A stretch of DNA of 64,000 bases from Heterodontus francisci (Eukaryota), in NCBI RefSeq assembly GCF_036365525.1, contig NC_090383.1:86107123-86171122 (forward strand), written 5' to 3'. Made by a program: the position numbers and the translations under genes. Below the pieces are notes generated by a model. The model was given only the letters and a program-made list of their open reading frames with translations, did not search any database and had not been told where the DNA came from. This document shows positions 1 through 64,000 of this stretch, one piece after another (within the stretch, counting starts at the first letter, position 1; the number at the start of each line of letters is the position of its first letter).

Positions 1-790
1 CCTAAATCTTACTGTTCTCTGAGTAATACTTGTAATATATTCCCTTGTTGGAAAAGATTTTTCATGCTACTTGTACCCCATGTTTGCTGTATTAATGTTA
101 ACAAACAAAGCTTAGTATTATTTCCATGTAAACAACAGCAAGTTACAAAATAATTCTGTGTTTAACAGAACCCATGTGCAGTACTGCATCTTTTGAAAAT
201 GGAAAATTCATTTTTGGAGATTTTTCTATTTTGCCTAGTATCAAGGAAGGAAGAACTTTTTTAATGCCTAAATAAACATGAAAATTCGCAGATGCTGCAA
301 TTTGAATATAACATTAGGATATGCTTGGTCTTACAGATAATTTTGTTTTCAGTTGACTTAAATACAATTTGTTGCAAAAGTGAGACCGTTCTGTTTTCCC
401 ACTGTTGGCTGACCCTGTTACGGATATCGATGAAAAGACTGACATAGCTGAATGAACTCATAATCTTTAGTTTTAAACTAATGTACAGATTGCTCTGAAG
501 CAGAGAGCACACCCACTTCTTTTCCTTTTACTCGTCCTGTTAATACCTTAAATTAACCACATTCTATTGTATTGTGCAATTTTCCTCTCATGAAACCATT
601 TAGCATGTATTTACATTCACTGTAGAAATGTTTATAATACAGGAATCCTTTCGGTATTTGGGAGAATACTTGTAATAAATGAGCTGTTAATATATGTTGA
701 ATTCATGTATAATTGGTACTATGTACTATATGTAAAAAGCTCAAGATTCAAAATAAATGCTTTAGGTGTTGAAAGGTTTGTTCCTCCTTC
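1..790 (+). other. Possible terminal 3'UTR of an upstream plus-strand gene (UBR2 by synteny)
   Basis: AT-rich and repeat-free, with many TGTA motifs and AATAAA at 752-757 followed by a GT/T-rich tract. Identity inferred only from human gene order. Confidence 0.3.
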
Positions 791-3958: not shown

Positions 3959-4845
3959 ATGTGATCTGCCAGATCTGTTGATGGATGGCGGAATCAGTTG
4001 TACATCACATACAATCTAGTATGCACCTCTTGGACTTGAGGGAGCAACAATGTGGGGTTTACTGGGGAACAAACAGAATGGAACAAAGTAAAAGGTTTAC
4101 TGCAGTTAAGGGCATTAAAGGTGGTGGTGAGGGAGTGAGTTATAATTAATGGCTTTTGTGGTTCCATAAGGAGGGAAGGAATTAAAGTACATTTGTTTAA
4201 TGGCGAAGAAGCATTAGAAACTTTCTGGGTTTCTGGAACCCAGCATTGAGGGAAATGAATGTATTTAATACCCAAAGTTACTTTAGGGAAATAGTTTAGC
4301 TCTTTTGGAATGAAGTAATTTTATGGTTAAATCTACTCTTCCTTAAGTTAAACTGTTGGATTCATTCAAATGAAGGAGAGTCTGAAATTGCCAACAAAAT
4401 ATTCTGTGTATGCTGTTGAGTAACTATTTCTTCAAATATATTTTGTGATTGGAATCTCTCAATTGTGGGGCTATTTATTATGTTTCTTAAGAATGGGAAG
4501 TTCATTCCTAAATAGTTTGGTGTTCAGTTTAAAGAATCTTTCTCTAAGTTTCACACATATAGGCTGAGATGAATAAATTGAAACTAAACCTTGTTTGTAC
4601 TTTCTCAAATTTTTCCCCAGCTCCACACCTATTTTATATTCCTTTGCTTGCATCTGAAGGTGATGACTCCTGCTGAGGCATATTTCCATTGATTATGGGC
4701 ATTGTTGATTTTGGGAGGCATAGGAATGGAGCCTGATTGTGTCCTCAGCTGACAGCCATGCTGGATAGCTATCAAGAGCTGGAATGTTGGCTCCCATTTC
4801 CCCTTTGCATTACGGGGACACTGAAGCCAAATAGAGAACATTTGG

Positions 4846-4932
4846 AAAGTTAACAGACCTGAAACATTAACTTTGTTTTCTCTCTATGCATGCTGCCTGA
4901 CCTGAGTATTTCCAGCATTTTCTGTTTGTATT
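4846..4932 (+). mobile_element. Penelope-end fragment
   Basis: gacctgaaacattaact...atgctgcctgacctgagtatttccagcattttctg resembles 27019-27100. Confidence 0.6.
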
Positions 4933-5229
4933 TTTATGAAAGAACACATACATTTGCAAAAATAATTTAGCACAGAACCTTGAATAAGCTTGACTTTTCT
5001 GATGGTGTGTACATTTAACTGCTGGGTCATTGAGAGAACCTTGGATTTACCCTCCAAAGCAGCTCCCCCAAATTGCCAGAGCACTTTTTTTTAAAGTAGC
5101 ATTTAATCAGCGAAACAATTTTTAAATTACTTTTAAAGAAAATTCTAAGTAACTTTTTTTTAGAAAAATGATGATGTGGTGCTGAGACATTTCTGTTATG
5201 TGGCCTATGAAAAAATTCTTAGATTATAG

Positions 5230-7975: not shown

Positions 7976-9047
7976 TGAATAAGCCTGGCTGATAAACCAT
8001 TCACGAGTTATTGCTGGACCTCCATATGGAAGTAAAAACATACAAAAACAATCAGTGATCTGTTTATAGCATTCTTGGGTGTTTCCATCCACTCCTCCTC
8101 ACCCCACACACTCTCTTTTTGTTGGTGTTTAATGATACTTCACTGCTCTACAGTAATATAAAAATATTTATCAAATTTGGGCCACCATAAATGTTAACAG
8201 CTCTTTTTAAAGAAAACACTAACGCCATTAAAAACATCCATTTTTTTTTTGTTGACAAAATACTATTTAGAAAAATTGATTTGACAACCAACTGTGACTG
8301 CTGTTAAGTGCAGATTATTTTAGGCAATGAAAAGAAGTGAATGTTCAAAAACTGAGTGTTTTGCAGCTTGCAAAATATGTGCATTATTTTCAGTTGTGGC
8401 ATTTTTAAATTAATTACATATGCAAAATCCAGAGGTAGTATTAATTAATCTATTCTTTGTTCTCAATATATTTTCTGAATTTCTCAAATGTTATTTTCTT
8501 ATGGTTCTGCCTCCATTTTAGAGCAGAAAGTATGCCTTAGTTCTCAGTTAGACTTGACCTGAGAGAGTTGATGTTCAGCCTGGGCCAAATTGGGAAAACC
8601 CATGCAATATCATTACAACTTAAATCTCTGCTACTGAAGCTAGCTGCCTATTTAATATTCATGGGAGGGCCTCTCAACATTTAACTCATTCTACCTATTT
8701 AATCTAAAATTTATTTACTAGACTATTGATATGTAGGCCAAGTTTGTTCATGTACTCGCAATCACTGCATTAAAAAAATAAAACGTGTTAAGCATTTTTG
8801 AGACGTTTTGACAATGTGATCAGATGCTACATTAATAGAAGTCTTTATCTTCAAATTAGGTGCCAATGTTCAAATACAAGCTTGCAACTATCTTGTTTTC
8901 CAGTCACACTCCCTTATTCAAAGATACCTATCTATCCTTGCTGTAAAATTAGCAGCACATACTGAACCCCCTCATGTAATGTCATGGGAAAGCATTTATG
9001 CAACAAAAAATGTAATGAAAATTAGCCATTTACTTAAAGTGCTGAGA

Positions 9048-9388
9048 GTTTAGTTTAGTTTAGAGATACAGCACTGAAACAGGCCCTTCGGCCCACCGAG
9101 TCTGTGCCGACCATCAATCTCCCATTTATACTAATCCTACACTAATCCTATCACATCCCCACCTGTCCCTATATATTTCCCTACCACCTACCTATACTAG
9201 GGGCAATTTATAATGGCCAATTAACCTATCAACCTGCAAGTCTTTGGCATGTGGGAGGAAACCGGAGCACCCGGAGGAAACCCACGCAGACACAGGGAGA
9301 ACTTGCAAACTCCGCACAGGCAGTACCCAGAATCGAACCCAGGTCCCTGGAGCTGTGAGGCTTTGGTGCTAACCACTGCACCACTGTG
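9048..9388 (-). mobile_element. HE1-like tRNA-derived V-SINE
   Basis: tRNA-like head with A/B boxes, V-domain core TGTGTGGAGTTTGCA...GGGTGCTCCGGTTTCCTCCCACA, CR1-like tail, (CTAAA)n. Confidence 0.85.
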
Positions 9389-9792: not shown

Positions 9793-10145
9793 ACAGTGGC
9801 GCAGTGGTTAGCACTACAGCCTCACAGCTCCAGTGACCCGGGTTCGATTCTGGGTACTGCCTGTGTGGAGTTTGCAAGTTCTCCCTGTGACCGCGTGGGT
9901 TTTCGCCGGGTGCTCCGGTTTCCTCCCACAGCCAAAGACTTGCAAGTTGATAGGTTAATTGGCCATTATAAATTGCCCCTAGTATAGGTAGGTGGTAGGG
10001 GGATATAGGGAAGGTGGGGATGTGGTAGGAATATGGGATTAGTGTAGGATTAGTATAAATGGGTGGTTGATGGTGGGCACAGACTCGGTGGGCCGAAGGG
10101 TCTGTTTCAGTGCTGTATCTCTAAATAAATAAAAATAAATAAAAA
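9793..10145 (+). mobile_element. HE1-like V-SINE
   Basis: Same family, (TAAA)n tail. Confidence 0.85.
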
Positions 10146-10318
10146 CCTTTGCACTGGGGCCTCACCATAAGAATGGGGTTCCTTGCTTTAGAAGGAACAT
10201 CTGAAGAGCTGAGAAGGAGCATTTACAGTGGTCAATCTGTGCCTATTGCTAGATCGATTGAGGGGTAACGTCAATTGTAATTATAAAAATATTCATGTCC
10301 TGTACTGTCCTAATATTT

Positions 10319-10833
10319 TAATTGAAGCAATGTCCATCCATCACTAAGATTGAGTACTTTCCTCTGCTGAAACCCTTATCCATACTTCTGTTACCTTACA
10401 GCTCAACTTCACCATCTCATCGCTATACTAACTCTAACTTGTGAAAAATTCTAATGCCCACACTAAGTTCTGCTTGTCTATCACTGCTGTCCTCCAACTT
10501 CCAATGGCTTCCTGTTTCCCAATGCACTGAATTCAACATCCTAGTGTGGTTTTACCAATGTCTTTATGGCCTTGCCCCACATTACTTCTACAACATCTTA
10601 AACTAAGCATACTAGAATTTCAAATTCAGTACATCAGGAAACAATTGGAAATTGGAGATAGTTGGGCACAACTTAGTGTGGGCAGCAGAGTTTTGCACAA
10701 GTTAGAGTTTGTGTAGCGATTAGTTTTGCACGCTGGTGAATAAAGTTAAGCTTTAAGGTAACAGAGGTATGGATAAGTGTTTTAGCAGGAGAAAGTATTC
10801 AATCTTAGTGATGGATGGACATATCCTGAATTA
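10319..10833. repeat. Old inverted duplication (arms about 10319-10520 and 10635-10833)
   Basis: tgtccatccatcactaagattga / tcaatcttagtgatggatggaca and further collinear blocks. Confidence 0.8.
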
Positions 10834-11130
10834 GAAGATTGGGAGCCTTTAACTATGGCTTGCTGTGTATCCTCTCTCTCCTTCTAACACCTCTCACTTG
10901 GTGGTAGAGCTTCCAGACATCCAAGTGCCCAACTCAAACTCGCTCACTAAACCTCTTTTCCTTGAACGTTTGGTCAGAATGCATCTTTTTTACTGTGCTG
11001 ATTCTTCCATTCACTGTTCCATCTGTTTCTTTGTGAAGTGTCTTGAGATGTTTCATTTCTCTTCAGGATATTCTGCTAGTGCAAGTGGCTGTTGCTAGTT
11101 TAGGATGGAGTTGTGGGAAAAATTTACAAC

Positions 11131-13722: not shown

Positions 13723-14060
13723 TTATTTATTTAGAGATACAGCACTGAAACAGGCCCTTCGGCCCACCAAGTCTGTGCCAACCATCAACCACCCATTTAT
13801 ATTAATCCTACATTAATCCCATATTCCTACCACATCCCCACCTTCCCTCAATTCCCCTACCACCTACCTATACTAGGGGCAATTTACAATGGCCAATTTA
13901 CCTATCAACCTGCAAGTCTTTGGTTGTGGGAGGAAACCGGAGCACCCGGAGAAAACCCACGCAGTCACAGGGAGAACTTGCAAACTCCGCACAGGCAGTA
14001 CCCAGAATTGAACCCGGGTCGCTGGAGCTGTGAGGCTGCTGTGCTGACCACTGCACCACC
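13723..14060 (-). mobile_element. HE1-like V-SINE (PRPH2 intron 2)
   Basis: Same family. Confidence 0.85.
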
Positions 14061-15309: not shown

Positions 15310-15775
15310 GAAAGACTTGCATTTATATAGCACCTTTTACAACCTCTGGAAAACGCAAAGCACTTTGCAGCCAATTAAATACTGTTTGACGTGTAGTCAC
15401 TTGTAATGTGGGAAACATGACAACCAGTTTGCAGACAGTGAGGTCCTACAAACAGTAATATAACAACGGCAGGTAATTGGTTTTAGTGGTTCTGGTAGAG
15501 GTCTAGATAATGGCTAGGACATGGAGAACTAATACAAAAGCAAAATACTGCGCATGCTGAAAATCAGAAATAAAAACAGAAAATGCTGGAAATACTCAGC
15601 AGGACTGGCAGCATCTGTGGAGAGAGAAACAGCTAACATTTCAAGTTGATAACATTTCATCAGAATGATTTCTGATGAAAGGTCATCAACCTGAACCATT
15701 AACTCAGTACTGCGCTGAGTTGTCAGGCTAGATTATGTCTTCAAGTCTGAGGTGGGACTTCAGGCTGGCACCACT
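15310..15775 (-). mobile_element. Old Deu-domain-type SINE (SacSINE1/AmnSINE1-like) split by a Penelope fragment
   Basis: L2-type tail aaagacttgcatttatatagc at 15312 and cagtactgcgctgagttgtcaggctagattatgt at 15705. Family name is from recall. Confidence 0.5.
15534..15704. mobile_element. Penelope-end fragment with back-to-back hammerhead-like motifs
   Basis: Same terminal sequence as 25862-25997. Palindrome centred at about 15667, with CTGATGA...GAA(A/C) on both strands (15631-15665 minus, 15670-15704 plus). Confidence 0.7.
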
Positions 15776-16443: not shown

Positions 16444-16600
16444 ATAAAAACAGAAAATGCTGGAAATATTCAGCAGGTCAGGTAGCATCTGTGGAGAAAG
16501 GAACAGATTAAGTCTTTCTCCACAGATGCTGCCTGAGCTGAGTCTTTCCAGCATTTTCTGTTTTTATTTCAGATTTTTAGTATCCACACTGTTTCTTTTG
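16444..16600. mobile_element. Penelope-end hairpin fragment
   Basis: Arms 16444-16500 and 16514-16567 are reverse complements of the Penelope terminal sequence. Degenerate flanking duplication cacaatgcttaatg / cacaacttattg. Confidence 0.7.
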
Positions 16601-16633: not shown

Positions 16634-16971
16634 GGGGCAGCGCAGTGGTTAGCATCACAGCTCCAGCGACCCGGGTTCAATTCCGGGTACTGCCTGTGTG
16701 GAGTTTGCAAGTTCTCCCTGTGTCTGCGTGGGTTTCCTCCGGGTGCTCCGGTTTCCTCCCACATGCCAAAGACTTGCAGGTTGGTAGGTAAATTGGCCAT
16801 TAGAAATTGCCCCTAGTATAGGTAGGTGGTAGGGAAAATATAGGGACAGGTGGGGATGTGGTAGGAATATGGGATTAGTGTAGGATTAGTATAAATGGGT
16901 GGTTGATGGTTGGCACAGACTTGGTGGGCCGAAGGGCCTGTTTCAGTGCTGTATCTCTAAACTAAACTAAA
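16634..16971 (+). mobile_element. HE1-like V-SINE (PRPH2 intron 2)
   Basis: Same family, (CTAAA)n tail. Confidence 0.85.
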
Positions 16972-17582
16972 CATTAAATATAGTCCTGTTTGTATTAATC
17001 CTGGAGATATATTACTTATTACATTCATTGTATACAAACAATTTAACGGTTACTATCAAAGCTATGTTATCCACTTAAATCAACATGTAAAACTTTGTAA
17101 GTTCTAAACTGGTCGTTTGTAGTCTGTCCATCTGCTAATCATCAGAACAAGAAGCTTGTTTTTGCTCTTGGACTGGAGATATGTTTAAAATCTGTGCTGA
17201 ATCTGAGAAGCAACATTTAATTTTTCTTCAACGTTCTGATTATAAAGCCGTATGTATACATTATATAGAGAAGGAGCCGACTTCATCTGTTACGCTGGGA
17301 TGGAAAGGCAGAAGCAAAACACTAAGATACATACATTCATGTTCATTTTTCTGCCTTTTAGAAAGGGTGCTCCCCACAGAAGATTATAGTTCTGCCGTGT
17401 TAACATTCATAAAGATGCACAATAACTGTGGCTGTCCTAATTGCTGCCTGATAGACATCTTAGCAGCTAAGCAAAAACTTTTACCGTTTAATACAAGAAT
17501 CATTTGACAAGAACATTCTCCCTTGTAAGGTTTACAATCCGGTTCTAGTTTTTAAGCTTGTGTTAAGAATTGGTCCTCTTAC

Positions 17583-24190: not shown

Positions 24191-25960
24191 GGTGTTAGTT
24201 GGTGGTGGTTGCAGGTTTTGGAGGTAGTGCATCTTCTAAATGATACTGCAGTAACGTTGTGCTGGTGGTGGAGGAAATTAACATTTAAAGTGGTGGATGG
24301 GTGCTGATCAAGCAGAATGCTTTGTACTGGATGGTGTGAAGCTTTTTTCAAATGATTTTGGAGCTTCACTCATCCAGACAAGTGGGGAGTATTGCATCAC
24401 ACTCCTGGACTGGTGCCTTGTCTATGGTGGAAAGGCTTTGGGTAGTCATGTGGTGTATCACTTGTCACAGAGTATCCAGGCCTGAGGTTAACTTTCCTGT
24501 AATCTTCCCTCTTGCTGTGGGGTTATTGTTGTATGTTTACTGTATCTCCAAAACCATGTAATTGAGATCAGACTCTGGAAGGAGCAAATGCAACCTCTGT
24601 TCTATTACTGCAATGTTGCTGCTTCTCACTGAAACTGATTTTTTTTTAACCAAAATATTTCCAATTTGTTTTTAGCTGGAAATGAAACATTTCATGTTAC
24701 TTCTGCAGCTAATAGTAACATTGTTAGCTAGGTTTCATTTGGTCCATGTTTGGAGCACATACTAAAGAATCCTTTGAAAATAGTACTTGTTGATTGGCTG
24801 CCCGCCTCGTGGAGTGGGCTGTCAATCCTGCTACCAACCCATCTGTCGGAAATTCCCCCAGAGACGGGAATGCATCGGGACCTGTCCCAACTCTCCCCTA
24901 TTTTCCTCGCTCCCCAACCCTGTTTCAATGGGATCTGGAAAATCTAGCCCAAATGTTACAAAAGCTGATTTATAATGAAGTCACACTTCATAAATCTAAC
25001 ATTTCTATTGTCTTTCAAATAACATTTTTGACATTTTGTAAGTTATTGGGTGAAGATGTAATTTTTGTGCATTTATAAATACCCAGTAACCTTTTACTTC
25101 ATTACCAAGTGTTACGATCAGGTGAGGAGGGTTACAAGGCTCCCATTTTGTCCTTCCTCTTATTTGACTGCAACAGGGTTATTCCTTTTTAAACAGTGGA
25201 TGTGCTTACTACTTCAGTGAGTATTCTATCTTTGTTGTGATTGTAAAAGAACCAATTAGACAGGTTTTCTTGAGTTTAACAAGAGATGAGTTGATTATAC
25301 TTAACAATTTAAACCCGATCTAAATAAAATAATAAAATTACGCTACACATTCACACACACACACACACACAAGAATCCCACACACACAAATAGATTAGTG
25401 TGTTGTGGAGCAGATTTTGTGGTTGGATTAGAGTCTAGAATAAATAAAAATTAATACACAGTCTGTGGGGTTGGATAATTCAGTTGTCTTCCGCTGAAGT
25501 TGTGTTCTTGAAGTCTTTGGCCAGTAAATGTGCAGTTTGTGACTGGCCCACCTGGTTCAGGCTTTTCTTGTAGGCAGGATTGTAGGTGACTTTCTTCCCC
25601 CAGTGTCTTTGTCTTGGATCCAGCAACCAGCAGCTAAGCTTCGCACGCCCCCACCAGGCCTTCTCGAAAGGGAGGGGGAGAGAAAGACAGCCCTTCTGGC
25701 TTCTGCCCAGAATGAGTCACTGGCTTGTCTGCTTTTTCCAAGGGAAACTCCCAGCTTTCACAGAGATGGACAGTCACATGACTGCCTCAGTGTATTGTCT
25801 GGAACCTTCTAATGAGTTTCAAATTTAGGAATTTCAATCCCTCAGGCTTCAGGATGTTAATATAAAAGCAAAATACTATGGATGCTGGAAATCTGAAATA
25901 AAAACTAGAAATGCTGGAATCACTCAGCAGGTCTGGCAGCATCTGTGGAAAGAGAAGCAG

Positions 25961-25997
25961 AGTTAATGTTTCGGGTCAGTGACCCTTCATCGGAACT
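25961..25997 (-). ncRNA. Minimal hammerhead motif, mirror copy
   Basis: Minus strand AGTT-CCGATGA-A-GGGTC act GACCC-GAAA-CATT-AACT. Stem II is perfect; the core has C in place of U4. Confidence 0.6.
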
Positions 25998-26998
25998 GAC
26001 AAATATTAGAAAAATCACAGGTTATAAGCAAGTGAGGTGGGGGTGGGGCAAGAGATAACAAAGGAGGTCTAGATTGGACCAGGCCACATAGCTGACCAAA
26101 AGGTCACGGAGCAAAGGCAAACAATATGTTAATGGTGTGTTGAAAGACAAAGCATTAGTACAGATTAGGTGTAAATACACTGAATATTGAACAGCAGCAA
26201 GTGCAAACCTGAAAAAAAAGTGGGTAAGCAAACTGAACAAAGATGAAATGAAATAAATGCAAAAAAAAGATTGTTAAAAAAGAATGTTAAAAAAAAAGAA
26301 AAAAATAACTAAAAATGAAAGTAAAATGGGGGGCTGTTATGCTCTGAAATTATTGAACTCAATGTTCAGTCCGGCAGGCTGTAGTGTGCCTAATCGGTAA
26401 ATGAGATGCTGTTCCTCGAGCTTGCGGAACATCTCCGCTCAGTCCGCAAGCAGGACCCTGAGCTTCCAGTTGCTTGCCATTTCAACACTCCCCCCTGCTC
26501 ACATTTCTGTCCTGGGACTGCTGCAGTGTTCCAGTGAATATCAACGCAAGCTCGAGGAACAGCATCTCATTTACCGATTAGGCACACTACAGCCTGCCGG
26601 ACTGAACATTAAGTTCAATAATTTCAGAGCATGACAGCCCCCCATTTTACTTTCATTTTTAGTAATTTTTATTTCTTCCTTTTTTTTTAAACATTCTTTT
26701 TTACATTTTTTTACAATCTTTTTTTTTGCATTTATTTCATTTCATCTTTGTTTGTTCAGTTTGCTTACCCACTGATATTTTTTTAAGTTTTGCACTTGCT
26801 GCTGTTCAATATTCAGTGTATTTACACCTAATCTGTACTAATGCTTTGTCTTTCAACACACCATTAACATATTGTTTGCCTTTGCTCCGTGACCTTTTGG
26901 TCGGCTATGTGGCCTGGTCCAATCTAGACCTCCTTTGTTATCTCTTGCCCCACCCCCACCTCACTTGCTTATAACCTGTGACTTTTCTAATATTTGTC

Positions 26999-27035
26999 AG
27001 TTCTGATGAAGGGTCACTGATCTGAAACATTAACT
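26999..27035 (+). ncRNA. Minimal type I hammerhead ribozyme motif (Penelope-associated, probably decayed)
   Basis: AGTT-CTGATGA-A-GGGTC act GATCT-GAAA-CATT-AACT: core boxes, stem II, and stem I AGTT/AACT. Confidence 0.65.
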
Positions 27036-29146
27036 CTGCTTCTCTTTCCACAGATGCTGCTAGACCTGCTGAGTGATTCCAGCATTTCTAGTTTTTATTT
27101 CAGGATGTTAATGCTTACACCTGGAGGAATTGGCCCTTTCAAGGTTAATGTCTCAGGATGGCTTTGAATGTCCTTCTAATGAAGGCAATCTCCTTTCGTT
27201 CACTCAATAGAGCAAGCCACTGTTCTGGGTACAGGCTCATCAGACCTGTCTCTCTTGTTGGGGGCTTTGGAATGTGCAAGGTTTTCAAATGCAAATTGTG
27301 GTGGCCATCTCGGCTGCAGCTTTTTTAAAAAGTTGACTGTAGAATTCCAGCTCTTTCTGTTTCATTAAAAGCTTAATGTAGGTTTCCAATCAATGAATTA
27401 AAAAATCCTTCTTCGGCATTTCTTGCCACCAACTATTAAAAAGCAATCTGGATGGGAAATAAATGGGTACTCCCTCAAATTCAAGTCAACTGGATAAAGT
27501 AAATGGATAAAATCCTAAGTTTTATTTAATCGACTGTCATAATGAATAGTTTTTAATTAGAAATGATAGATGTGCGTAATTTTCTTTATCTTTTCTTCTT
27601 CCCAAGTAAGGCCCCATTCAATCAACCTGCAACATCTTTGCAGACAGCCGATGTCACTCTTCAAGGTGATAAGTTCAAATTGAGAAACGCTATCAGTACC
27701 TTTTTTCCCCTTTCTAGGACGCCTAAACAAATTTAGCAAACAGCTGCTGAGGAAGCCAAAGTGTGAAAAGTCAAGTATGAAAAATGTATTCTCGCATCTA
27801 TTGCTCAAGAGACTCTCAGCAATGCATTGTTACAGATTGTATGAGTTCAGAAATAGATCGAAACCAAGACTACGCAGTAGAATGAGTTTGAAAGACAGTA
27901 AAAAGCACAGTTTCTGCTTAAAGAGATTTTAAACTTTCCTACACATTAGCTAATACTTTAGAATAATATCTGAATTGCTGTTGAATGTAAAAAGGTTCTA
28001 TGTTAACCCACATGATGAATTTACTCCTCTTTTAGTCCTGGGTCACTAACAAATTAACTCATCCATCCACATCCTCTTTGAGTTTGATGTGAGAAAACAG
28101 ATCAAAGATTGTCAGGCACATCAAGGGGATGTTTACCATTTGACTGGCTGAAAAAAACTGCATTTTGGAGCTGACTTAAGTTAGATACCTATTTCAAAGT
28201 GGAATCAGCCAGAAAGGCAGAAAAGAAAATGAAGGACAAAATTTAGATAGGTGAAAACGAGACAATATAATTAAGGAAAATGGTCATAATGGCTTTTACA
28301 TCATACAGTTTAAGTGTTTAGCTATCGTAATGTAGGATTATTGTACTGATAATACTGGCTGTGGAGGAGCTTTATAGGGTGAAATTAATGTTCCCCACCC
28401 AACCAAAATTTCAGTGCAGTAGGTGAAAACTCACAAAACTGATAGTCAGACAGCTTCCCTGAAGTTGCCAACAGTCTAAACTGGAATGGGGTAGAAATTC
28501 ATTCACACTGGTAAGGCAAAGTTTACTGGGCATGGGTAACATGGGGCCATGTACAAAAACAGGTAGTCCTGATCGATATTGGGTCTTATTTTACTAACTC
28601 TGATGAGAAATGAAAAATAGTCTGAGATGAATTTCAGGCCACTACGATGTCACTAAAAGTTTTCAGCTAGGGCTGGAGGAAGGCGATCGGAATACAGCTG
28701 AGCAAAGGTTGCCAGCAGCCCAACCATTGCTCCTTCTCTTGGCTCTACATGAAACCAATTTCATTGTTAAATTTAATAGGCTTTGATGGCTTCCTTTTAA
28801 GTACCATGGTTAGACTGCTGCAGAACTGGAAATATTAGTCAGAGCTTGCATGGTGCAAGTGGTGCCCAATATTTGGCTGCTTATTAGGCTATTGGCAGAA
28901 ACGCCTCTAGAACACCAACATAGTGTTGGACGTGCTTTTGCTGCCTTTTAGGCAGAGATTGACCTCCTACACTGGTTCTGTGCCTTGTTTTCTTTCTGCA
29001 AGACAGATACAATGCAGTTCAATTTCAACCCTTGTACATTTGAGTCTGCAAGGGATGATTTCAGATTTAAGTAACTATTAACCCTATATAAAAATCAAAA
29101 GCAAGCGGATTAAAGATGGTCAAAAACACCAAATGACAGAAGGCTT

Positions 29147-33339: not shown

Positions 33340-33688
33340 GGGGCGGCGCAGTGGTTAGCACCGCAGCCTCACAGCTCCAGCGACCCGGGTTCGATTCCGG
33401 GTACTGCCTGTGTGGAGTTTGCAAGTTCTCCCTGTGTCTGCGTGGGTTTTCTCCGGGTGCTCCGGTTTCCTCCCACAAGCCAAAAAGACTTGCAGGTTGA
33501 TAGGTAAATTGGCCATTATAAATTGTCACTTGTATAGGTAGGTGGTAGGGAAATATAGGGACAGGTGGGGATGTTTGGTAGGAATATGGGATTAGTGTAG
33601 GATTAGTATAAATGGGTGGTTGATGTTCGGCACAGACTCGGTGGGCCGAAGGGCCTGTTTCAGTGCTGTATATCTAATCTAATCTAAT
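33340..33688 (+). mobile_element. HE1-like V-SINE
   Basis: Same family, (CTAAT)n tail. Confidence 0.85.
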
Positions 33689-34012: not shown

Positions 34013-34407
34013 GAATAAGTATTGTGACAACTACACCTCATGTCCACTTGTGGTACGGGACATCCCACCACAAATTTTATATATGGATTGCTAATTTAGT
34101 GCCTGAAAATTAGACGAAACACAATTGCATTTCTACACCTAATGGTCTGGAAACAGACACTAGGATTGCAGAGCTATTATGTTTGATAATACTGACTGTA
34201 TGTCAGAGGCTAAATTAATAATAAAGTACCAAACATTAAAATTCTTTAATTCAAAATCTGTTTTATACTTAAAAAACTCAAAAATTTTTATGAACTGAGA
34301 AAACGTACAGAATAATCAAAAAGGTAGCATACTCATAATAGTTTAAGCCCATTGTTTAACGGTTAATGTCAAGTGGAACTATGCCTATAAAGTAATCACG
34401 TCATGGT

Positions 34408-34753
34408 TTAGATTAGATTAGAGATACAGCACTGAAACAGGCCCTTCGGCCCACCGAGTCTGTGCCGACCATCAACCACCCAGTTATACTAATCCTACAC
34501 TAATCCCATATTCCTACCAAACATCCCCACCTGACCCTTTGTTTCCCTACCACCTACCTATACTAGTGACAATTTATAAAGGCCAATTTACCTACCAACC
34601 TGCAAGTCTTTTGGCTTGTGGGAGGAAACCGGAGCACCCGGAGAAAACCCACGCAGACACAGGGAGAACTTGCAAACTTCACACAGGCAGTACCCAGAAT
34701 CGAACCCAGGTCCCTGGAGCTGTGAGGCTGCGGTGCTAACCACTGTGCCGCCC
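34408..34753 (-). mobile_element. HE1-like V-SINE
   Basis: Same family, (CTAAT)n tail. Confidence 0.85.
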
Positions 34754-35097: not shown

Positions 35098-35438
35098 GGG
35101 CGGCGCAGTGGTTAGCACCGCAGCCTCACAGCTCCAGCGACCCGGGTTCGATTCTGGGTACTGCCTGTGTGGAGTTTGCAAGTTCTCCCTGTGACTGCGT
35201 GGGTTTTCTCCGGGTGCTCCGGTTTCCTTCCACAGCCAAAGACTTGCAAAATGATAGGTAAATTGGCCATTATAAATTGACCCTAGTATAGGTAGGCGGT
35301 AGGGGAATTGAGGGAAGGTGGGGATGTGAGAGGGTAATGGGATTAATGTAGGATTAGTATAAATAGGTGGTTGATGGTCGGTACGAACTCGGTGGGCCGA
35401 AGGGCCTGTTTCAGTGCTGTATCTCTAAAATAAAAATA
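35098..35438 (+). mobile_element. HE1-like V-SINE
   Basis: Same family, (TAAAA)n tail. Confidence 0.85.
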
Positions 35439-36066
35439 ACATTTTACAATGTAACTGCATACAGGGATGTTATCTGGATGATCGGATTAGGACAGATAAT
35501 GCAGAACAACTATAAACTTAAAATTGTTTTTCAGCTATTCGATTACTATGGCATTCAAGTTTTCTTTCTAAGTTTTCTTTCATGCAACGCTTCTTCTGAG
35601 ATGAGATTTACTGCTGATTCTGAAGATCTCCAACATGTTGCAATAAAGCCAGTGCTATCTTGGAAGCATCTTCACGTGAAAATATGAGATCAGTCGTTCC
35701 TTGGGCGAATAAATTTAGAGGTAAAAGTTCACTTTGAATTTAAGTATAACTTGTCTTTCAAACAACTTGCTTTGGAATCAAAATACTTTGTGTAAGGGCT
35801 GTGTTTCTGTAGTTATAACAGCCAATCGTTATGATTCTACCAAAATGGTCATTCTGGTGGTAGGTGTCTCACCTTATGGACAGGGTGCTATAATTTAGCA
35901 TGTTTTTAAAGGGGCTGCAGAAAGACTAGTAGCATATGTATGTTGGCCATTGACCTCTGCGGAAAGAGATAGGAAAGACAGCATCAGCTATCATAATTGG
36001 TCAACGTAAGTATTACTAATATCTGTTGATATGCTCATGTAAAGTGCAGCGATTAAAAATACAAGA

Positions 36067-37369: not shown

Positions 37370-37798
37370 CAATACAGTTGTAGTTGAGAGGAGATGCAGT
37401 TTCAGAAGGAAAAAGAGGAAAGAGAATTACAGTTGAAAATAGAGGGAACACAATTGCAGAGGAGAAGCGAGGAAGCAGTGAGAAAACTTACAGAGATCCC
37501 ATCCAAGGGCAGAACAAATACCACGGAATGGGTAAAAGGGCTTACTGGCAAATGCTTAAAGGTTCCTTTAGTTAAAGATGTAAGTTGGTCACCAGGGTAG
37601 TGACAGTCGGGGTCAATACGAGTTTACCAATGCAGAGGTTGACCTATGCTGGCAATGACTTAGCAAGAAGCAGAGTATTGTATCCAGAGTAGTCCATGGA
37701 GACTGGAGAAACTGAGGGGAACAAACAAAACTCTGCACAGCTGCACACGGCAGAGGAAGTCCCAAAAATCACATGGGACAATTGGGTCAGTAACGATT

Positions 37799-37891
37799 AA
37801 AGAGGCTAAAGGAAAGCCAGTAGAATTTAAACAGGCCAAGATAGAGCCAGTGGAATTTAAAGAGGCCAAGAAAGAACCAGAAGAATTTAAA
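37799..37891 (+). repeat. 30-bp tandem repeat x3
   Basis: aaagaggctaaaggaaagccagtagaattt / aaacaggccaagatagagccagtggaattt / aaagaggccaagaaagaaccagaagaattt. Confidence 0.8.
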
Positions 37892-39954
37892 GGAGCTGAG
37901 ATAAAAGCAGCAAAGGTTAAAGGAAAAGCACCAGAGATATGCTTCGCCAAAACCTTCTTTAAAGATTTAAATAGGGACAAGGAAAGTTCCCAAACAGGCA
38001 AGCCATGCGTGAGGGAGATGCCTCACCTAGCTGAAGTGCCACAGGGGAGTACAGCAGAAGCTGGACAACCACCTGCGAGCAGTACTGTCCCAGAGGACAT
38101 GGGGCAGATTAGGGAAAAAACCCATCCCCAAAGTAAAGGGAAAAGGGAAGGTAAAATGCCCTCGGGTAAATAACATCTGTGAAAGCCAGCAGAAAGAAGT
38201 GAGGTCATTGTGGATGTGCCCACTGAAAAATCAAAGGGTCGGGTTCTAAATCCAGAGCTAACCGAACCCAGCAAAACCGATTCAGAACTCACCAAGGACA
38301 AAGTGCAGGCGGAGAACCCAGACGCCTCACAGGAACTAAAACCATAATTTATCATCCACTGTCACCCTAAAGTTAAGAATTATCAATGTTACAGAACCTG
38401 AACTATTAAGCTCATGTGTTGTGGAAACAGCAGTTAAGGGGTTAAAGCCAGTACAGACAGTGGAATTTGCAAACAACCCAGAAAAATGCAATAACGGAAA
38501 TTTGCATATTACAAGCCTTGAAACAGAAAAGGTGTCTCTCCCAAAGTCGTCTTCTTCTTTGGCCTCCTTGTCTCGGGAGACAATGGGTAAGTGCCTGGAG
38601 GTGGTCAGTGGTTTGTGGAGCAAACCCAAAGTACTGCAAACAAATGCTAGAGAACTCCAACCCTGCTTAGGCACCACATAGCTGGGATTTAAAAGTGGGA
38701 AATGGATTTTTAAAAAGACACCAAACGTTCGAAACAGAAGCTTTACTGGGGTAAATCTACAATGCCCAAAAACGAAATTCAATTATAACTGTGCCTCATC
38801 CAAAGAAAGGATGATGTAAAACTCAAACAAGAAATGGCTGTTACAGACAATGCCAGCTATAGCAGTTGTGAGATTGAGGTGTGGCTGTCATGTGTGCAGT
38901 GGTGCGACTCCGATAACCTTCCTACTTTCTTTCTTTCTAAACCTAAAAATCAAACAATATAAAAATGAAATCCAGGGAATTTCATTTTTCCCTTTTCGGG
39001 GAGGTGTTAGGCTCACTTAAGGTGCAGCGATTGAAAATACAAGAACTCAACCTGAAGAGTTATAAAAATTGACTTTTCTTTTTAAAAAGTGGACATTGTG
39101 CTTCAAAATGGCTGCCGAAGGTCAAAAGACCTGGCCTTGTTTATTCACACTTACTGTTTGGCAAGAACAGAAGGATACATTCCAAATTTAAGAAGTGTTA
39201 ATTACACCCATCCTGAACCCATCAAGAGACATTTTTGAATTGAATGAGTTAATGTGAAACAAAGAAGGTGTGAAGTAGCCACATCCTGGGCCATTGTCGG
39301 TCACCACAGGAAGAAAGATCTATGTCTCCCGACAGAGGCAAGATGTGACAGACTTTTAGCTTAAAATGTAGCTCTCTGGAGAGAGAGGGGGGGAGCCCCA
39401 GGTCAAAAGATCATGAAAGCTTGTCCAACTGAGAGCTGGGACAAAACTCCAGCAAGCCAAAAAGGTGCCCTGCTGTGAATTCTACACTTTAACTTGTGCA
39501 GCAGGGAACTGGAAGTGATTGCCTGTTTTCAGACTGAAATTTCAACCAACAGAGAGATCTACAAACAATTTCAGCCTGCAACTTTAAAGAGAAATTGACC
39601 TCCAAAAAGATTCAACAGGTTTACTGTGAACCCCGAAAACCTACCTCACTGCAAACCACTTACGTCTTTTCCTTTCTGTCTCTTCTTGTGTGTGTGCGTG
39701 TGAGTCAATGCATGTGGGTACGGTTGCAAGAATTTTGGGATAAGGCATATTACTCAATAATTAATCTTAGGTTTTCTTGTAGGTTTAAAACAGGTCGCTG
39801 TCTGTTTATTTGACAAATAAAACACAACGGCGTTAAAACCCTCAACAAAAACATTTGCTTTGTCATTTGGGAGTTAAACAGTGGGGACCACTCACACCCC
39901 TCACCACGGGCCGTAACAGTGTATAGCAGGAAGCCAGTAATTATAGGCCACGGG

Positions 39955-40157: not shown

Positions 40158-40501
40158 AGTTTAGTTTAGTTTAGAGATACAGCACTGAAACAGGCCCTTC
40201 GGCCCACCGAGTCTGTGCCGACCATCAACCACCCATTTATACTAATCCTACCCCAATTCCATATTCCTACCACATCCCCACCTGTCCCTATATTTCCCTA
40301 CCACCTACCTATACTAGGGGCAATTTATAATGGCCAATTAACCTATCACCCTGCAAGTCTTTGGCATGTGGGAGGAAACCGGAGCACCCGGAGGAAACCC
40401 ACGCAGACACAGGGAGAACTTGCAAACTCCACACAGGCAGTACGCAGAATTGAACCCGGGTCGCTGGAGCTATGAGGCTGCGGTGCTAACCACTGCGCCA
40501 C
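40158..40501 (-). mobile_element. HE1-like V-SINE
   Basis: Same family, (CTAAA)n tail. Confidence 0.85.
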
Positions 40502-51827: not shown

Positions 51828-52180
51828 CCGCACAGTGGCGCAGTGGTTAGCACCGCAGCCTCACAGCTCCAGGGACCCGGGTTCGATTCCGGGGACTGCC
51901 TGTGTGGAGTTTGCAAGTTCTCCCTGTGTCTGCATGGGTTTTCTCCGGGTGCTCCGGTTTCCTCCCACAAGCCAAAAGACTTGCAGGTTGATAGGTAAAT
52001 TGGCCATTATAAATTGTCACTAGTATAGGTAGGTGGTAGGGAAATATAGGGACAGGTGGGGATGTTTGGTAGGAATATGGGATTAGTGTAGGATTAGTAT
52101 AAATGGGTGGTTGATGTTCGGCACAGACTCGGTGGGCCGAAGGGCCTGTTTCAGTGCTGTATCTCTAATCTAATCTAAAC
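51828..52180 (+). mobile_element. HE1-like V-SINE nested in an L2-like remnant
   Basis: Same family, (CTAAT)n tail. Confidence 0.85.
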
Positions 52181-54416: not shown

Positions 54417-55664
54417 TGTTACAGCCAGGTGAGAAGTGGGTTGGGGGTGATGGGGGGGGGGGGGGGGGGTGGTCACAGGTTCTCCTCTTATTTGACCGCA
54501 ACAGGGTTTATTCCTTTTAAACAATGGTTGTGCTTACTACCTCAGTGAGTGTTTTACCTTTTACCTTTAATGTGATCGTGCAAGAAGCAGTCGGACAGGT
54601 TTTCTTGAGTTTAAACAAGCGGTGAATTTATTATACTTTACAATCTAAACCCAATCTAAAGAAAATAATAAAAAAAAATGCTACACATTTGCGCACATAT
54701 ATGAAAATCTCACACATAGAGTGAAAAGTAGATTTTGTGGTTGGATTAGAGTCCAGAATAAATGGAAATTAAATACACATTCTGTGAAGTTGGATGATTC
54801 TGTGATCTTCTGGATGAAGTTGTATCCTTGAAATCTTTGGCTAGTCAAAATGCACTTTGTGACTGGTCTGCTTGGCTGAGGGCTTTCTTGGAGGAAGACT
54901 TGTAGGTGGCTCTCTTCCCCTGGGCTCTATCTGTACCAATCTATGCTTGGAGGGTCCACAGTCGCCGACGGTTTTCAAACTTGTGTTATTTGGAGAGAGA
55001 GAGAGAGAGAGGGAGGCAGGCACGCACGCAGCCTTTCTGCTGCTGTACAGTCATTAAATCCATTCAAGAAGGAGATAGATATATTAATGCCAAAGCGATC
55101 AAGGGATATGGGGAGAAAGCGGGAACAGGGCACTGAATTAGATGATCAGCCATGATCTTTTTTGAATGGCGGAGCAGGCCCAAAGGGCCGAATGACCTAC
55201 TGCTCCTATTTTCTATGTTTGAGTTACTGGCTTGACTCCCTTTGTTCAAGGAAACTCTCAGCTTTCACAGAGATGGACAGACAGTCACATGGCTGACTCT
55301 GTATTCTCTGGGACCTTCTAATGAGATTCAAGGTTCCGAATTGGCTCCCCAGGCACCTGGATGCCAGTATTTACACTTGGAGGGGTTTGCTCTTTCAAAG
55401 TCAAGGTGTTAGGATTGTCGTGAATGTCGTGCTAATGAAGCAATTTTAGGTATTTTAATCACTTAGAGCAAACCATTGTTCTGGGTCCATGCTTCTCAGA
55501 CCACTGTCTCCTGTTGGGCCTTGAAATGTGAAAAGGTGTTTCAGATGCAAATTGTGGTGGCCATCTTGACTGCCAGTTTTTTTCAAAGGTAACTACTGCA
55601 GGACTTTTAAAAGTTTAATGTAAGTTTCCAACCAATGAATTAATATTCCTTATTTGGCATATCA
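54417..55664 (-). mobile_element. Solo LTR with a nested CR1 tail (about 55050-55220)
   Basis: TGTTAC...GGCATATCA, flanks cttg / cttt, collinear with 25110-27428. Confidence 0.75.
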
Positions 55665-55910
55665 CTTTTCTTGATACTTGCAAATGAGTGCTTTTGTTTA
55701 TTTTTTTTACAAGTATGTCATTTGATAAATGATGGAGAGGATATGCATGCGATGTTATGACCAGATGAGGAAGAGGTCTAGGGTTCCCTTTCAGCCTTCA
55801 CCTGGTCTTACTGTAACAGGGTTTAATTTTAAACACACTGTTTTTAGCTCCCTCTTGATTGTCTATTGATTCCTCAACGAAATGCTTCTCCATCATAATG
55901 GCCCCACCCC

Positions 55911-56740
55911 TACGGGAAAAGGAGACGGGGGATCCTGTCGGATGGTTCCCCGAGCAGACCGCCAAAGGCATTTGGCGGAATGCCTCATCACCAGAACTTT
56001 CAAACAAGCACCAAGATGTAGCTTGGCTGGTGGTGAGAAGGGCCCTCCCTGTCAGATCCTTCCTGCACGCCCAAAGTCTCGCCCCCTCCGCGCAATGCCC
56101 CCGCGGTGGCTGTGGTGGGGAAGAGACGGTTGCCCACCTCCTCCTGGAATGTGTCTTTGCAAAGCAGGTGTGGAAAGAGATGCAGTGGTTTTTGTCGAGG
56201 TTCATCCCAAGCAGCTCTGTAACAGGAGTCTGTGCTCTACGGGCTGTTCCCAGAGACGCACACCGAGACAAACATCAACTGCTGCTGGAGGGCTATCAAT
56301 TCGGTGAAAGACGCCCTTTGGTCTGCCCGAAACCTGCTGGTCTTCCAGCGCAAAGAGTTGTACACCACCGAATGTTGCAGATTGGCACATTCCAAGGTCC
56401 AGGACAACATGCTGAGGGACGCACTAAAGCTTGATGCAGCCGCAGCAAAGGCTCAATGGGGAAAGCCCACAGTGTAAGGTCCCCCCACCAAGCTGAACTG
56501 AGGGGCTTGACCCATGGGAAACCCCTCCAACTGTATCGGGAAAATTTTCATTTGCTGTAAATGTAAAAATGTAATTGGCATGACAAATGTGAAATGGAAG
56601 GGTTGTGAAGCAACTGATATTGTATTGAAGGAAACTGATCTCCCTTGCAATGTTTGTATTTTTTGGTGCTGTTTGAAACTGTTTGGCAATGTAATTTTTA
56701 CAGATTTTTATGAATAAAGTATATTTTGGAAATTAAAAAA
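55911..56740 (+). mobile_element. Tx1-like LINE 3' fragment with poly(A) and 14-bp TSD
   Basis: zf-RVT-like CPRGGCGGEETVAHLLLEC. AATAAA then an A tail. AATGGCCCCACCCC repeated at 55897-55910 and 56741-56754. Confidence 0.9.
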
Positions 56741-62029: not shown

Positions 62030-64000
62030 AGGCGATCTGGCAGGGGAAGAAACCTCCCATGATAAGTGGTCTTTGATCCTGTTCCAGGTAGGTTTTGAGT
62101 AAAATGGCTGTAACCAATTATAGAGCTTCAGGCCAGGGAGTGCGTCAGCTCCCATTCGGCTGGTGGTGAAGGATAAGGAAGGAGGTGCATCTGTTGACCG
62201 TATCTTTTTCATTAAGAAAACCCTTATTGATTGCTGTGGATTCCAAGCTGCAGACATCTTCTGCCTGCAGGACTTCACCAGCAGTGGATATTTCAACGTG
62301 ACGTTCAAGAACGTGGCGGGATGCATCAAGTTCCTGAAGGTCTTCAAGGAGAAGGGAAACCAGGCACCACTGTCGATCTCACAGTGGAGCTGTTCTTCAT
62401 GCTGCCGTCGCAACGTGACCGGGTGGTGACAATTCAGCTCTGTAACCCCCAGGTTCCTGTCATTGATGTACTCACCATCCTTGCCAGGTATGTAGAGGTG
62501 GCCGGCAGCAGCACAGATGTCAAGGACCCATTTGGGATTTGGACCAGCAAGCGGCAGGTCAAGGTGATCTTGAAGGTCGATGCCAACGGAGCCATCATCC
62601 GTCCTCCCTCCAGCTTTGCTATCGGGGGAAGTCTAGGCTTGTTGGTCTATGCGGGGCAGCCCAGAGTTTGTCGCATCTGTGGCAAATCTGGTCACGTGGC
62701 AGCTAACTGCAGCACAGTCATCTGCAAGAACTGCAAGAAGGAAGGCCATCAGACCAAGGACTGTAAGCAGAGTAAGTGCGGCCACCTCTACAAAACCTGC
62801 CCCAAAAGCTGACTCAGTTATGCTCGGACGGCAAGGTCCAAGGAAAGGCCAGGAGAAGGAACGGTGAATGCGTCTGGTGCTGGGAAGGAGACAAACAACC
62901 CTCTCCGCAGCGAGGAAAGTCTACCTGAGAAGGAGAATAAAGGGGAGGCAGCTGGAACCAGCAACCCAACACCTACCCTGTGCTCGGAAATCCCTCCTCT
63001 ACAGTCAGAATCAATGAGGAGGAGGCAGCAGGTGGACAAACTGGTCAGTGGAAGTGGTACTAAGGAAAACCTCAAAGAAAAAACTTCCAAAAAAGGAACA
63101 GGCCACCACCCAAACCAGTGGCAAGAGGAGGCTCCCGTCTTGAAACAGACTAGGGAAGCTCCTCCTCATTGGACGAGGAAGGGCCGGAAGGACTACACCC
63201 GCAAAAGAAGCGGCAGAAACTAAAGGAGCTGGAAGGTAAAGCCCCCCAGCTCCAGGGCACCAGAAGCTGTGATGGGCCCAGCGTGCCCCAAACCCAAAGT
63301 GCTGAACCCAGCGACATGCCCAGCGTACCCCAGCTCCAGGACACCGAGAGCAAAGAAGTGTCTGGCGCACTCCAGCTCCGGGAAGCCGGGAGCAGTGATG
63401 TCTTTGAGGAGGAACAGAGGGGAAAGACACCAACAGCAGAGGACAGCCCAAGCCTTGCTGCCTACAAGACCCGCCCCTCCCCCCATGTCACCCCAGCAGA
63501 ACAAATCCCCCCATGAGAAACCAGGAGGGGTTTCTGAGCCCAATGAATGTGAAACAGCTTGCGTACACTATGGGTATGCAGGAACATACCCAAGGACTGG
63601 GGCTAGCGAGGACAACTGGTGTGGGAAGCAACAACTAACTTTAAAATGGGTATAAAGATTACTTTGATTAACGTGCATAGCATTAAATCCACTACGTGAT
63701 GTGTTTCAACCTTGGACTACCTCGCCAAGGTCAAAGCTGACCTGCTGCTTCTGCAGGAGTGTGGAATGCCACACCTCAGCACCTACAGGCAATGGTCGCG
63801 ATGGTGGTCCCATCGATCTGGTCAGGGGGTAATGATTCCCGTTCCTCCGGCCTGGGTATTCTGCTGCGGGGAAGCAATCTCACCATCTCCAAAGTTAAGG
63901 AGGTGATAGGCGGCCGCATCCTCATAGCAGATGTAATGTACAACAATGCTCTGCTCCGGTTGATCAACGTGTACGCCCCGGCTCAATGCATTGAGTGACT
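62030..64000 (+). mobile_element. Tx1-like (L1 clade) LINE, 5' part: ORF1 with CCHC knuckles and start of ORF2 endonuclease; decayed; runs off window
   Basis: YAGQPRVCRICGKSGHVAANC...CKNCKKEGHQTKDC. ORF2 ATG at 63646 (MGIKITLINV..., in-frame TGA), then LLLQEC, SSGLGILL, LINVYAP. Confidence 0.88.

What the first reader, a model, noticed from the sequence alone, without database searches (positions are those of the whole stretch)
25862..27103. 1.24-kb Penelope-derived palindrome carrying a hammerhead-ribozyme motif in each arm
Seen: two ~535-560-nt near-identical inverted arms surround a 118-nt loop. The loop plus right arm encode the end of a GIY-YIG-type endonuclease. The arms join at a TTGCG microhomology, the left arm has an extra ~31-nt terminal extension, and a 9-14-bp target duplication flanks the insert inside a solo LTR. 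Each arm has a C(U/C)GAUGA-A-stemII-GAAA motif. Known: Penelope-like elements insert with inverted pseudo-LTRs and carry minimal type I hammerheads thought to act as dimers. Inference: this is a fairly young insertion, and any read-through transcript on either strand (it lies between TBCC and PRPH2) would fold into a >500-bp dsRNA and contain one sense-oriented ribozyme motif.
Basis: partly seen in the sequence, partly recalled or inferred. Interest (0 to 1): 0.7.

Follow-up and report, generated by a model that had tools for sequence, protein, structure and literature searches.

The report
Ordinary inverted Penelope retroelement end
This 1.24-kb mirror-image DNA is two back-to-back copies of the end of a very common Penelope-type jumping gene; the layout is textbook, it likely occurs thousands of times in this genome, and its two ribozyme motifs are damaged and predicted to be inactive.

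Summary
In detail: arms 25893-26426 and 26545-27103 (523 of 534 aligned bases identical), 118-nt loop, 31-nt tail, 5-nt junction microhomology and a 14-bp duplication that is single in 11 of 11 paralogues of the host solo LTR. It is a 5'-truncated copy of an EN+ Penelope-like family (RT plus GIY-YIG, Neptune/Nematis-type linker) with about 96,000 hammerhead-motif matches in this genome. Head-to-head pairs are routine: 14 among the first 100 family hits, 13 of 14 with a tail on exactly one arm. Inverted pLTR, one-sided tail and minimal hammerhead are all published. The ribozyme reading is weaker than proposed: both arms lost the ACGU dimer palindrome, the right stem II has decayed, the motifs lie on opposite strands, and in a read-through RNA the sense motif is predicted to be buried in the hairpin. 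Read-through itself is not shown. Contigs of a relative (about 2% diverged) stop matching at the duplication, so the insertion likely postdates that split. Likely mechanism: two cDNAs primed from opposite target strands at the two RT start sites, joined by microhomology. The scan noted this family and idea before in other genomes (137 notes). Low interest.

The parts
25848..25861 (+). left copy of the 14-bp target-site duplication
   Evidence: single in 11 of 11 host paralogues
25862..25892 (-). 31-nt tail; in tandem family copies it is the stretch between the pLTR end and the ORF start (ATG 168 nt after hammerhead C3)
25893..26426 (-). left (shorter, tail-bearing) arm: inverted copy of the element 3' end
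25961..25997 (-). minimal hammerhead motif: U4C core as in the close family, intact 5-bp stem II, dimer palindrome broken
26422..26426 (.). 5-nt microhomology at the head-to-head junction
26427..26544 (+). 118-nt loop: element sequence present only in the longer copy
26424..26634 (+). C-terminal ~70 codons of the PLE GIY-YIG endonuclease, frame-shifted by an 8-nt deletion near 26500
26545..27103 (+). right (tail-less) arm: end of ORF, 3' UTR/pLTR
26999..27035 (+). minimal hammerhead motif: stem II weakened (-1.5 vs -5.8 kcal/mol), dimer palindrome broken
27099..27112 (+). right copy of the 14-bp duplication (first 5 nt shared with the element end)
25110..27428 (+). older host repeat of about 1.07 kb without the insert, solo LTR-like (TG...CA), 78-87% identical to its best paralogues

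Best explanation
It is a 5'-truncated, head-to-head insertion of an abundant endonuclease-bearing Penelope-like retrotransposon, likely built from two cDNAs primed on opposite strands of one staggered cut, and predicted to be inert today. Shown: family identity, two copies of the element 3' end, one tail, 14-bp duplication, 5-nt junction microhomology, decayed ribozyme motifs. Inferred steps: the GIY-YIG endonuclease nicks both strands about 14 nt apart; one 3' end primes reverse transcription at the downstream start site (about 131 nt after hammerhead C3, giving the tail) and the other at the upstream site (about 95-100); the cDNAs stop after about 565 and 680 nt, anneal through complementary 3' ends and are filled in. 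The hammerhead is a passenger of the pLTR; it likely cannot cleave here because the dimer helix is broken, no same-strand partner exists and the hairpin would sequester it.
For: Family: longer copies encode RT + GIY-YIG in one frame of up to 845 codons (Pfam RVT_1 E 7e-5, GIY-YIG E 2e-4 to 2e-3, below gathering score); 748 homologues among 7,986 candidates scored, named shark hits 64-70% identical. Abundance: 95,983 motif matches, 0 control. Architecture: 14 head-to-head pairs and 0 tail-to-tail pairs within 1.5 kb among the first 100 listed hits; 13 of 14 with exactly one tail (binomial p 0.0009 against 0.5); 11 of 14 with an 11-14-nt duplication. 3' ends are bimodal: 16 of 30 at +92..97 and 14 of 30 at +130..140, like the two RT start sites of the anole element, which cuts and extends both strands in vitro (PMC11167929). 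Here the shorter arm has the tail and the longer arm has the loop, so neither arm contains the other. The arms share rare variants (27029A in 1 of 59 other copies, 27090A in 3 of 59), and in 3 of 3 other long palindromes the arms are mutual nearest neighbours: one source template. Not a fold-back assembly artefact: arms differ at 11 sites and 7 gaps, one has a tail, and a duplication flanks them. Ribozyme decay. 0 of 30 family 5' ends fall at the base after the predicted cleavage site (+29), 13 of 30 at -4..+4.
Against: The priming model rests on genomic footprints; nothing here measures it. Fold-back synthesis with later trimming of one tail predicts the same one-tail rule. The window's left arm is closer to two other copies (1.9%) than to its partner in the multiple alignment, and 9 of 11 substitutions sit in the right arm (p 0.065). 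Shared variants could also come from gene conversion. In 3 other palindromes only one arm has the 8-nt deletion, so arms are not always exact twins. [quoted passage not shown] Ribozyme inactivity is predicted, not assayed, and the anole motif cleaved only with protein help. Contigs of guessed-RNA runs from a relative cover 27099-27804, so the site may be transcribed at some level. Clade assignment is by motif only; no tree was built.
Confidence: 0.85

Rival explanations
1. Same element, other route: one cDNA (or an antisense template) self-primes at the 5-nt microhomology and copies itself into a hairpin; the endonuclease then trims the tail from one end during integration.
For: The cDNA 3' end is complementary to a site 118 nt back; arms come from one template; self-priming was proposed in PMC3846280 (passages) and EN-mediated resolution of the tail in PMC8557442 (passages).
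Against: Without trimming, the copied (shorter) arm cannot carry a tail that the longer arm lacks, yet it does here and in several other pairs (L011, L017, L020, L025, L038, L044, L056, L203). Tail boundaries match RT start sites in vitro (PMC11167929).
Confidence: 0.25
2. The palindrome is a functional cis-element: TBCC read-through forms a long dsRNA (siRNA or A-to-I editing substrate) or is cut by the ribozyme, insulating the downstream tetraspanin gene.
For: It lies 2.4 kb past the TBCC stop and about 7.2 kb before the next gene on the same strand; predicted hairpin -968 kcal/mol; contigs of a relative cover the DNA up to the site.
Against: One of thousands of like insertions; likely absent in a 2%-diverged relative; arms have drifted 2% with hits in the ribozyme core and stems; five A(A/T)TAAA signals lie between the TBCC stop and the element.
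Confidence: 0.07
3. Assembly or library artefact (fold-back chimera).
For: Long inverted repeats are prone to mis-assembly (PMC8557442); no long reads were laid here.
Against: Arms differ at 11 substitutions and 7 gaps; one-sided tail; exact 14-bp duplication; same anatomy at many loci.
Confidence: 0.02

Closest known systems
EN+ Penelope-like element insertions with inverted 5' pLTR, one-sided tail and TSD (Adineta vaga Pen2a_Av, PMC3846280; general scheme in PMC8557442 Fig. 2 legend)
   Same: Head-to-head inverted 5'-truncated copy, 31-nt tail on one inverted end, short target duplication, C-terminal GIY-YIG endonuclease.
   Different: No direct pLTR or RT left in this copy; duplication of 14 bp (9-10 bp in the rotifer cases read); very high copy number; tail lies upstream of the ATG, not inside the ORF.
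Neptune/Nematis-type PLEs (CX2-5CxxC linker plus CCHH; PMC8557442)
   Same: Family copies show C-x4-C-x2-C before the endonuclease and the CCHH residues, R, H, E and N.
   Different: Neptune versus Nematis not resolved; no phylogeny with reference elements.
Minimal type I hammerheads of metazoan PLEs (PMC4209133); anole PAc hammerhead (PMC11167929)
   Same: Core boxes, extra A before stem II, short stem I, no helix III, palindromic 15.2-16.2 positions in the family; two insertion end classes about 37 nt apart downstream.
   Different: 5-bp stem II; U4C core in the closest subfamily (a variant that lowers activity in vitro, PMC3088659 passage); this copy has lost the palindrome in both arms.
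LINE-1 twin priming (recalled, no call)
   Same: Two primers from opposite target strands, microhomology at the inversion junction, target duplication.
   Different: In LINE-1 the second primer copies upstream RNA and gives an inversion without duplication; here both arms copy the same 3' region.

Membership tests
EN+ Penelope-like element | single ORF with RT and C-terminal GIY-YIG endonuclease | tested here: met
   In family copies 92-96% identical to this one; this copy holds only the last ~70 codons. Pfam scores are below gathering thresholds.
EN+ Penelope-like element | CCHH motif in the endonuclease | tested here: met
   Two Cys between the GIY-like and YIG motifs and two His downstream in L088, L096, L110; second-half residues present in the window remnant.
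EN+ Penelope-like element | partial-tandem pLTR, inverted 5' copy and 30-40-nt tail | tested here: met
   Tandem pLTR-ORF junctions in most of 25 loci; inverted copy and tail here and.
EN+ Penelope-like element | RT phylogeny within PLEs; similarity to CDD GIY-YIG_PLE (cd10442) | not tested
   No tree built; cd10442 is not among the libraries. Homologues carry RVT_1 and in part GIY-YIG.
Neptune/Nematis clade | CX2-5CxxC linker between RT and EN | tested here: met
   C-x4-C-x2-C in family copies; definition from PMC8557442.
Minimal type I hammerhead (family motif) | core boxes, stems I and II, covariation | tested here: inconclusive
   86% of cells paired vs at most 42% for slid controls; base of stem II is G-C, G-U or A-U; A-U 16,858 vs A-C 565 genome-wide; position 7 and loop II vary. 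Only one pair truly covaries, subfamilies are related, sampling used the core boxes, and Rfam found nothing.
Minimal type I hammerhead (this copy) | self-complementary 15.1-16.1 segment and a same-strand partner for dimer helix III | tested here: not met
   ACAU in both arms (duplex +3.4 vs -1.7 kcal/mol for family ACGU); the two motifs are on opposite strands.
Hammerhead ribozyme | self-cleavage | not testable with these tools
   Indirect only: 0 of 30 family 5' ends at the predicted cleavage site.
Solo LTR (host repeat) | TG...CA ends and short flanking duplication | tested here: met
   Exact 4-bp duplications read at 3 of 11 paralogues (L119, L120, L121), offset or partial ones at others; 4 of 5 match here. 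No two-LTR element with internal genes was sought.

The most novel reading that the evidence does not exclude
The strict one-tail rule, the ~14-bp stagger and the shared template of the two arms record a coupled mechanism: one RNP nicks both strands and copies the same PLE RNA twice, once from each RT start site, which would explain inverted pLTRs and the tail together. The pile-up of family 5' ends at the hammerhead's first stem would mark the transcription start, with the ribozyme usually uncleaved on the template.
Probability: 0.5. Interest if true: 0.45.

Novelty: new member of a known kind. Interest (0 to 1): 0.15.

Why it matters
The locus itself matters little: it is one of an estimated several thousand such insertions. 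The family is a large natural data set on an open question, how Penelope-like elements make inverted pLTRs and tails; the one-tail rule and the 14-bp stagger give predictions for the existing in vitro system. Thousands of long hairpins near genes could also feed dsRNA pathways in this genome, but that is untested.

Tried and rejected
Rfam scan: no hammerhead family among 7 weak hits. Pfam on the window remnant: 0 hits for 3 translations. PDB sequence search with an 845-aa family ORF: one irrelevant hit at E 0.85. Idea that the 8-nt frameshift marks a dead-endonuclease sublineage moved in trans: rejected as unsupported. It was enriched only where the query carried it, was absent from the 10 matches in the motif-anchored loci L124-L163, and sits in only one arm of 3 other palindromes (L011, L017, L020), which fits recurrent slippage at a short direct repeat. 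Monomer folding z-scores of the motif were weak (-0.3 to -1.7). First pair count had stem I mis-registered, redone; first end-mapping script had an offset bug (only its 5' columns used), redone, where 3 older copies (L138, L153, L158) were not resolved. Expression: no RNA holder on record was listed. In guessed-RNA contigs of the organism 99.9% identical to the window, the TBCC contig stops at 29142 near an ATTAAA signal and 27458-28130 has no cover; one study, contigs only, not evidence. Literature searches: 'Penelope-like'+'shark'+'inverted' (7 papers, listing only, none on this family by title) and 'Penelope'+'twin priming'+'inverted' (2 papers, listing only); these cover only the open library. 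Sequence look-up of earlier scan findings returned nothing.
Full report
Observation. The palindrome is real. Arms 25893-26426 and 26545-27103 align with 523 identities, 11 substitutions and 7 gaps, all gaps being bases absent from the left arm. The loop is 118 nt. The left arm runs 31 nt further in family sequence (25862-25892). TTGCG at 26422-26426 fits both the inverted arm and the family sequence before the loop. An exact 14-bp repeat flanks the insert; the same site is single in 11 of 11 paralogues of the host repeat. The host begins TG at 25110, ends CA at 27428, is 78-87% identical to its best paralogues, and several of those have 4-bp flanking duplications, so 'solo LTR' is reasonable. 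A TBCC ORF lies 2.4 kb to the right and a tetraspanin exon about 7.2 kb to the left, both on the minus strand (the PRPH2 name is recalled).

Identity. [quoted passage not shown] Family copies carry the CCHH residues and a C-x4-C-x2-C linker, which PMC8557442 (passages seen) assigns to Neptune/Nematis-type elements. A homologue search returned 748 proteins among 7,986 scored; named hits from sharks are 64-70% identical, so the host is probably a shark (inference). In tandem copies the pLTR end runs into the tail and then to an ATG 168 nt after hammerhead C3. The window copy has an 8-nt deletion that shifts the endonuclease frame; it recurs elsewhere, sometimes in one arm only, and looks like slippage.

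How common. A strict motif pattern matches 95,983 times (control 0) and a 28-nt downstream anchor 54,080 times. Among the first 100 listed anchor hits (first 11 Mb of contig C1) there are 14 head-to-head pairs within 1.5 kb and no tail-to-tail pair; scaled up, roughly 7,600 pairs (rough extrapolation). One of the 14 (L207, 1.43 kb) has arms as long as this one, and 3 of the 19 other best hits have arms of 683-865 bp. The architecture is published: 'an inverted 5'-truncated copy' with a '30- to 40-bp extension (tail)' often at one end (PMC8557442), and a 31-bp tail on one inverted pLTR with a 9-bp duplication (PMC3846280, passages).

Ribozyme. The family motif fits a minimal type I hammerhead as in PMC4209133 (parts 1-2 of 4 read): 4-bp stem I, extra A, 5-bp stem II, palindromic ACGU in place of helix III. 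On 22 distinct copies 86% of cells pair, against at most 42% for slid controls; the base of stem II is G-C, G-U or A-U, and genome-wide A-U outnumbers A-C 16,858 to 565. This is one covarying pair among related subfamilies sampled by their core boxes, so it is modest support; Rfam found nothing. The closest subfamily has C at position 4 (57 of 59 copies), a variant reported to lower activity in vitro (PMC3088659, passage). The right arm's CUGAUGA is therefore likely CpG decay. Both arms read ACAU for ACGU (58 of 59 other copies have G), the right stem II falls from -5.8 to -1.5 kcal/mol, the two motifs are on opposite strands, and the predicted read-through fold (-968 kcal/mol) pairs the sense motif with its antisense copy. 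Family 5' ends pile up at the motif's front (13 of 30 at -4..+4; 20 of 40 at -5..+5 in a motif-anchored set) and 0 of 30 at the base after the predicted cut, in line with PMC11167929 (parts 1-2 of 4 read), where uncleaved RNA was the main template and cleavage needed protein. A preprint on animal retrozymes found cleavage in 1 of 9 dimers tested (10.64898/2026.07.22.740005, passages). Supplements of these papers were not seen and may list shark motifs.

Mechanism. Family 3' ends fall in two classes, +92..97 (16 of 30) and +130..140 (14 of 30); this insert uses one class per arm. The anole protein cuts and extends both strands and starts at two sites that bound the tail. Here the shorter arm has the tail and the longer arm the loop, so one is not a plain copy of the other. 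The arms share rare variants, and in 3 of 3 other long palindromes the arms are mutual nearest neighbours. The best reading is two target-primed cDNAs from one source RNA, joined at 5 nt of complementarity; I put about 0.55-0.6 on this step and 0.25 on fold-back with trimming. Against it: the left arm is nearer to two other copies than to its partner, 9 of 11 substitutions lie in the right arm (p 0.065), and gene conversion could explain shared variants.

Age and expression. Arms differ by 2.1%; 2 of 11 changes are CpG transitions. Contigs from two studies of a related organism (13-14 differences in 660-700 nt) match from 27804 or 27764 down to exactly 27099, the first base of the duplication, and carry 81 and 95 further letters that do not match the arm. 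Those letters were not displayed, so an empty site is inferred; the insertion likely postdates that split. No absolute date is given. Those runs are only guessed to be RNA; they hint that the site may be transcribed in the relative. Transcription of the palindrome itself is not shown.

Verdict. A correctly seen, correctly named but ordinary Penelope insertion whose ribozyme motifs are predicted dead. A word search of earlier scan notes, run after the above analyses, found 137 findings in at least 15 genomes, several proposing the same double-priming idea; these are unchecked AI notes and are not counted as support. Interest 0.15.

Noticed in passing
window 28123 (relative, organism A): Contigs of two studies of the related organism end at 28123 in the tail sequence of this same PLE family: an independent insertion 1.3 kb past the TBCC stop that the window lacks.
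   Followed up: no
window 15530-15695 and 16444-16600; 4845-4933: Two older miniature head-to-head palindromes of related PLE ends (about 78-86% identical to this family's end) and a single fragment.
   Followed up: partly
family-wide, L124-L193: About half of all copies are ~100-140-nt stubs that start at a TCAGTT (initiator-like, recalled consensus) at the hammerhead's first stem; candidate transcription start. The same spot and the sequence before the ATG also look like 3' splice sites.
   Followed up: partly
family-wide: Subfamilies differ at core positions 4 (C/U) and 7 (A/U) and at the base pair of stem II (G-C, G-U, A-U); the CpG-intact, likely younger subfamily carries the U4C core.
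   Followed up: partly
L088-L092, G000 C748 and C396: Near-identical full-length tandem arrays of the element (two units 3.3 kb apart on C748), 98-99.7% alike.
   Followed up: no
window 9047-9385, 9796-10132, 13723-14059, 16640-16972, 33345-33687, 34405-34749, 35102-35439, 40159-40498, 51837-52178 and others: About a dozen copies of a ~340-bp SINE-like repeat (88-98% alike); resembles shark HE1 (recalled).
   Followed up: no
window 62231-62812 and 55859-56434: ORF fragments with zinc-knuckle-like and RT-associated Cys/His motifs, likely from L1/Tx1-type LINEs (by eye).
   Followed up: no
window 37664-38681 (+): Two adjacent open frames of 169 and 113 codons that may be a long exon of a host gene.
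   Followed up: no
window 54483-55663: Older paralogue of the host solo LTR-like repeat without the insert (74-82% identical).
   Followed up: partly
window 10308-10844: Weak self-inverted match (70% over 569 nt), unexplained.
   Followed up: no
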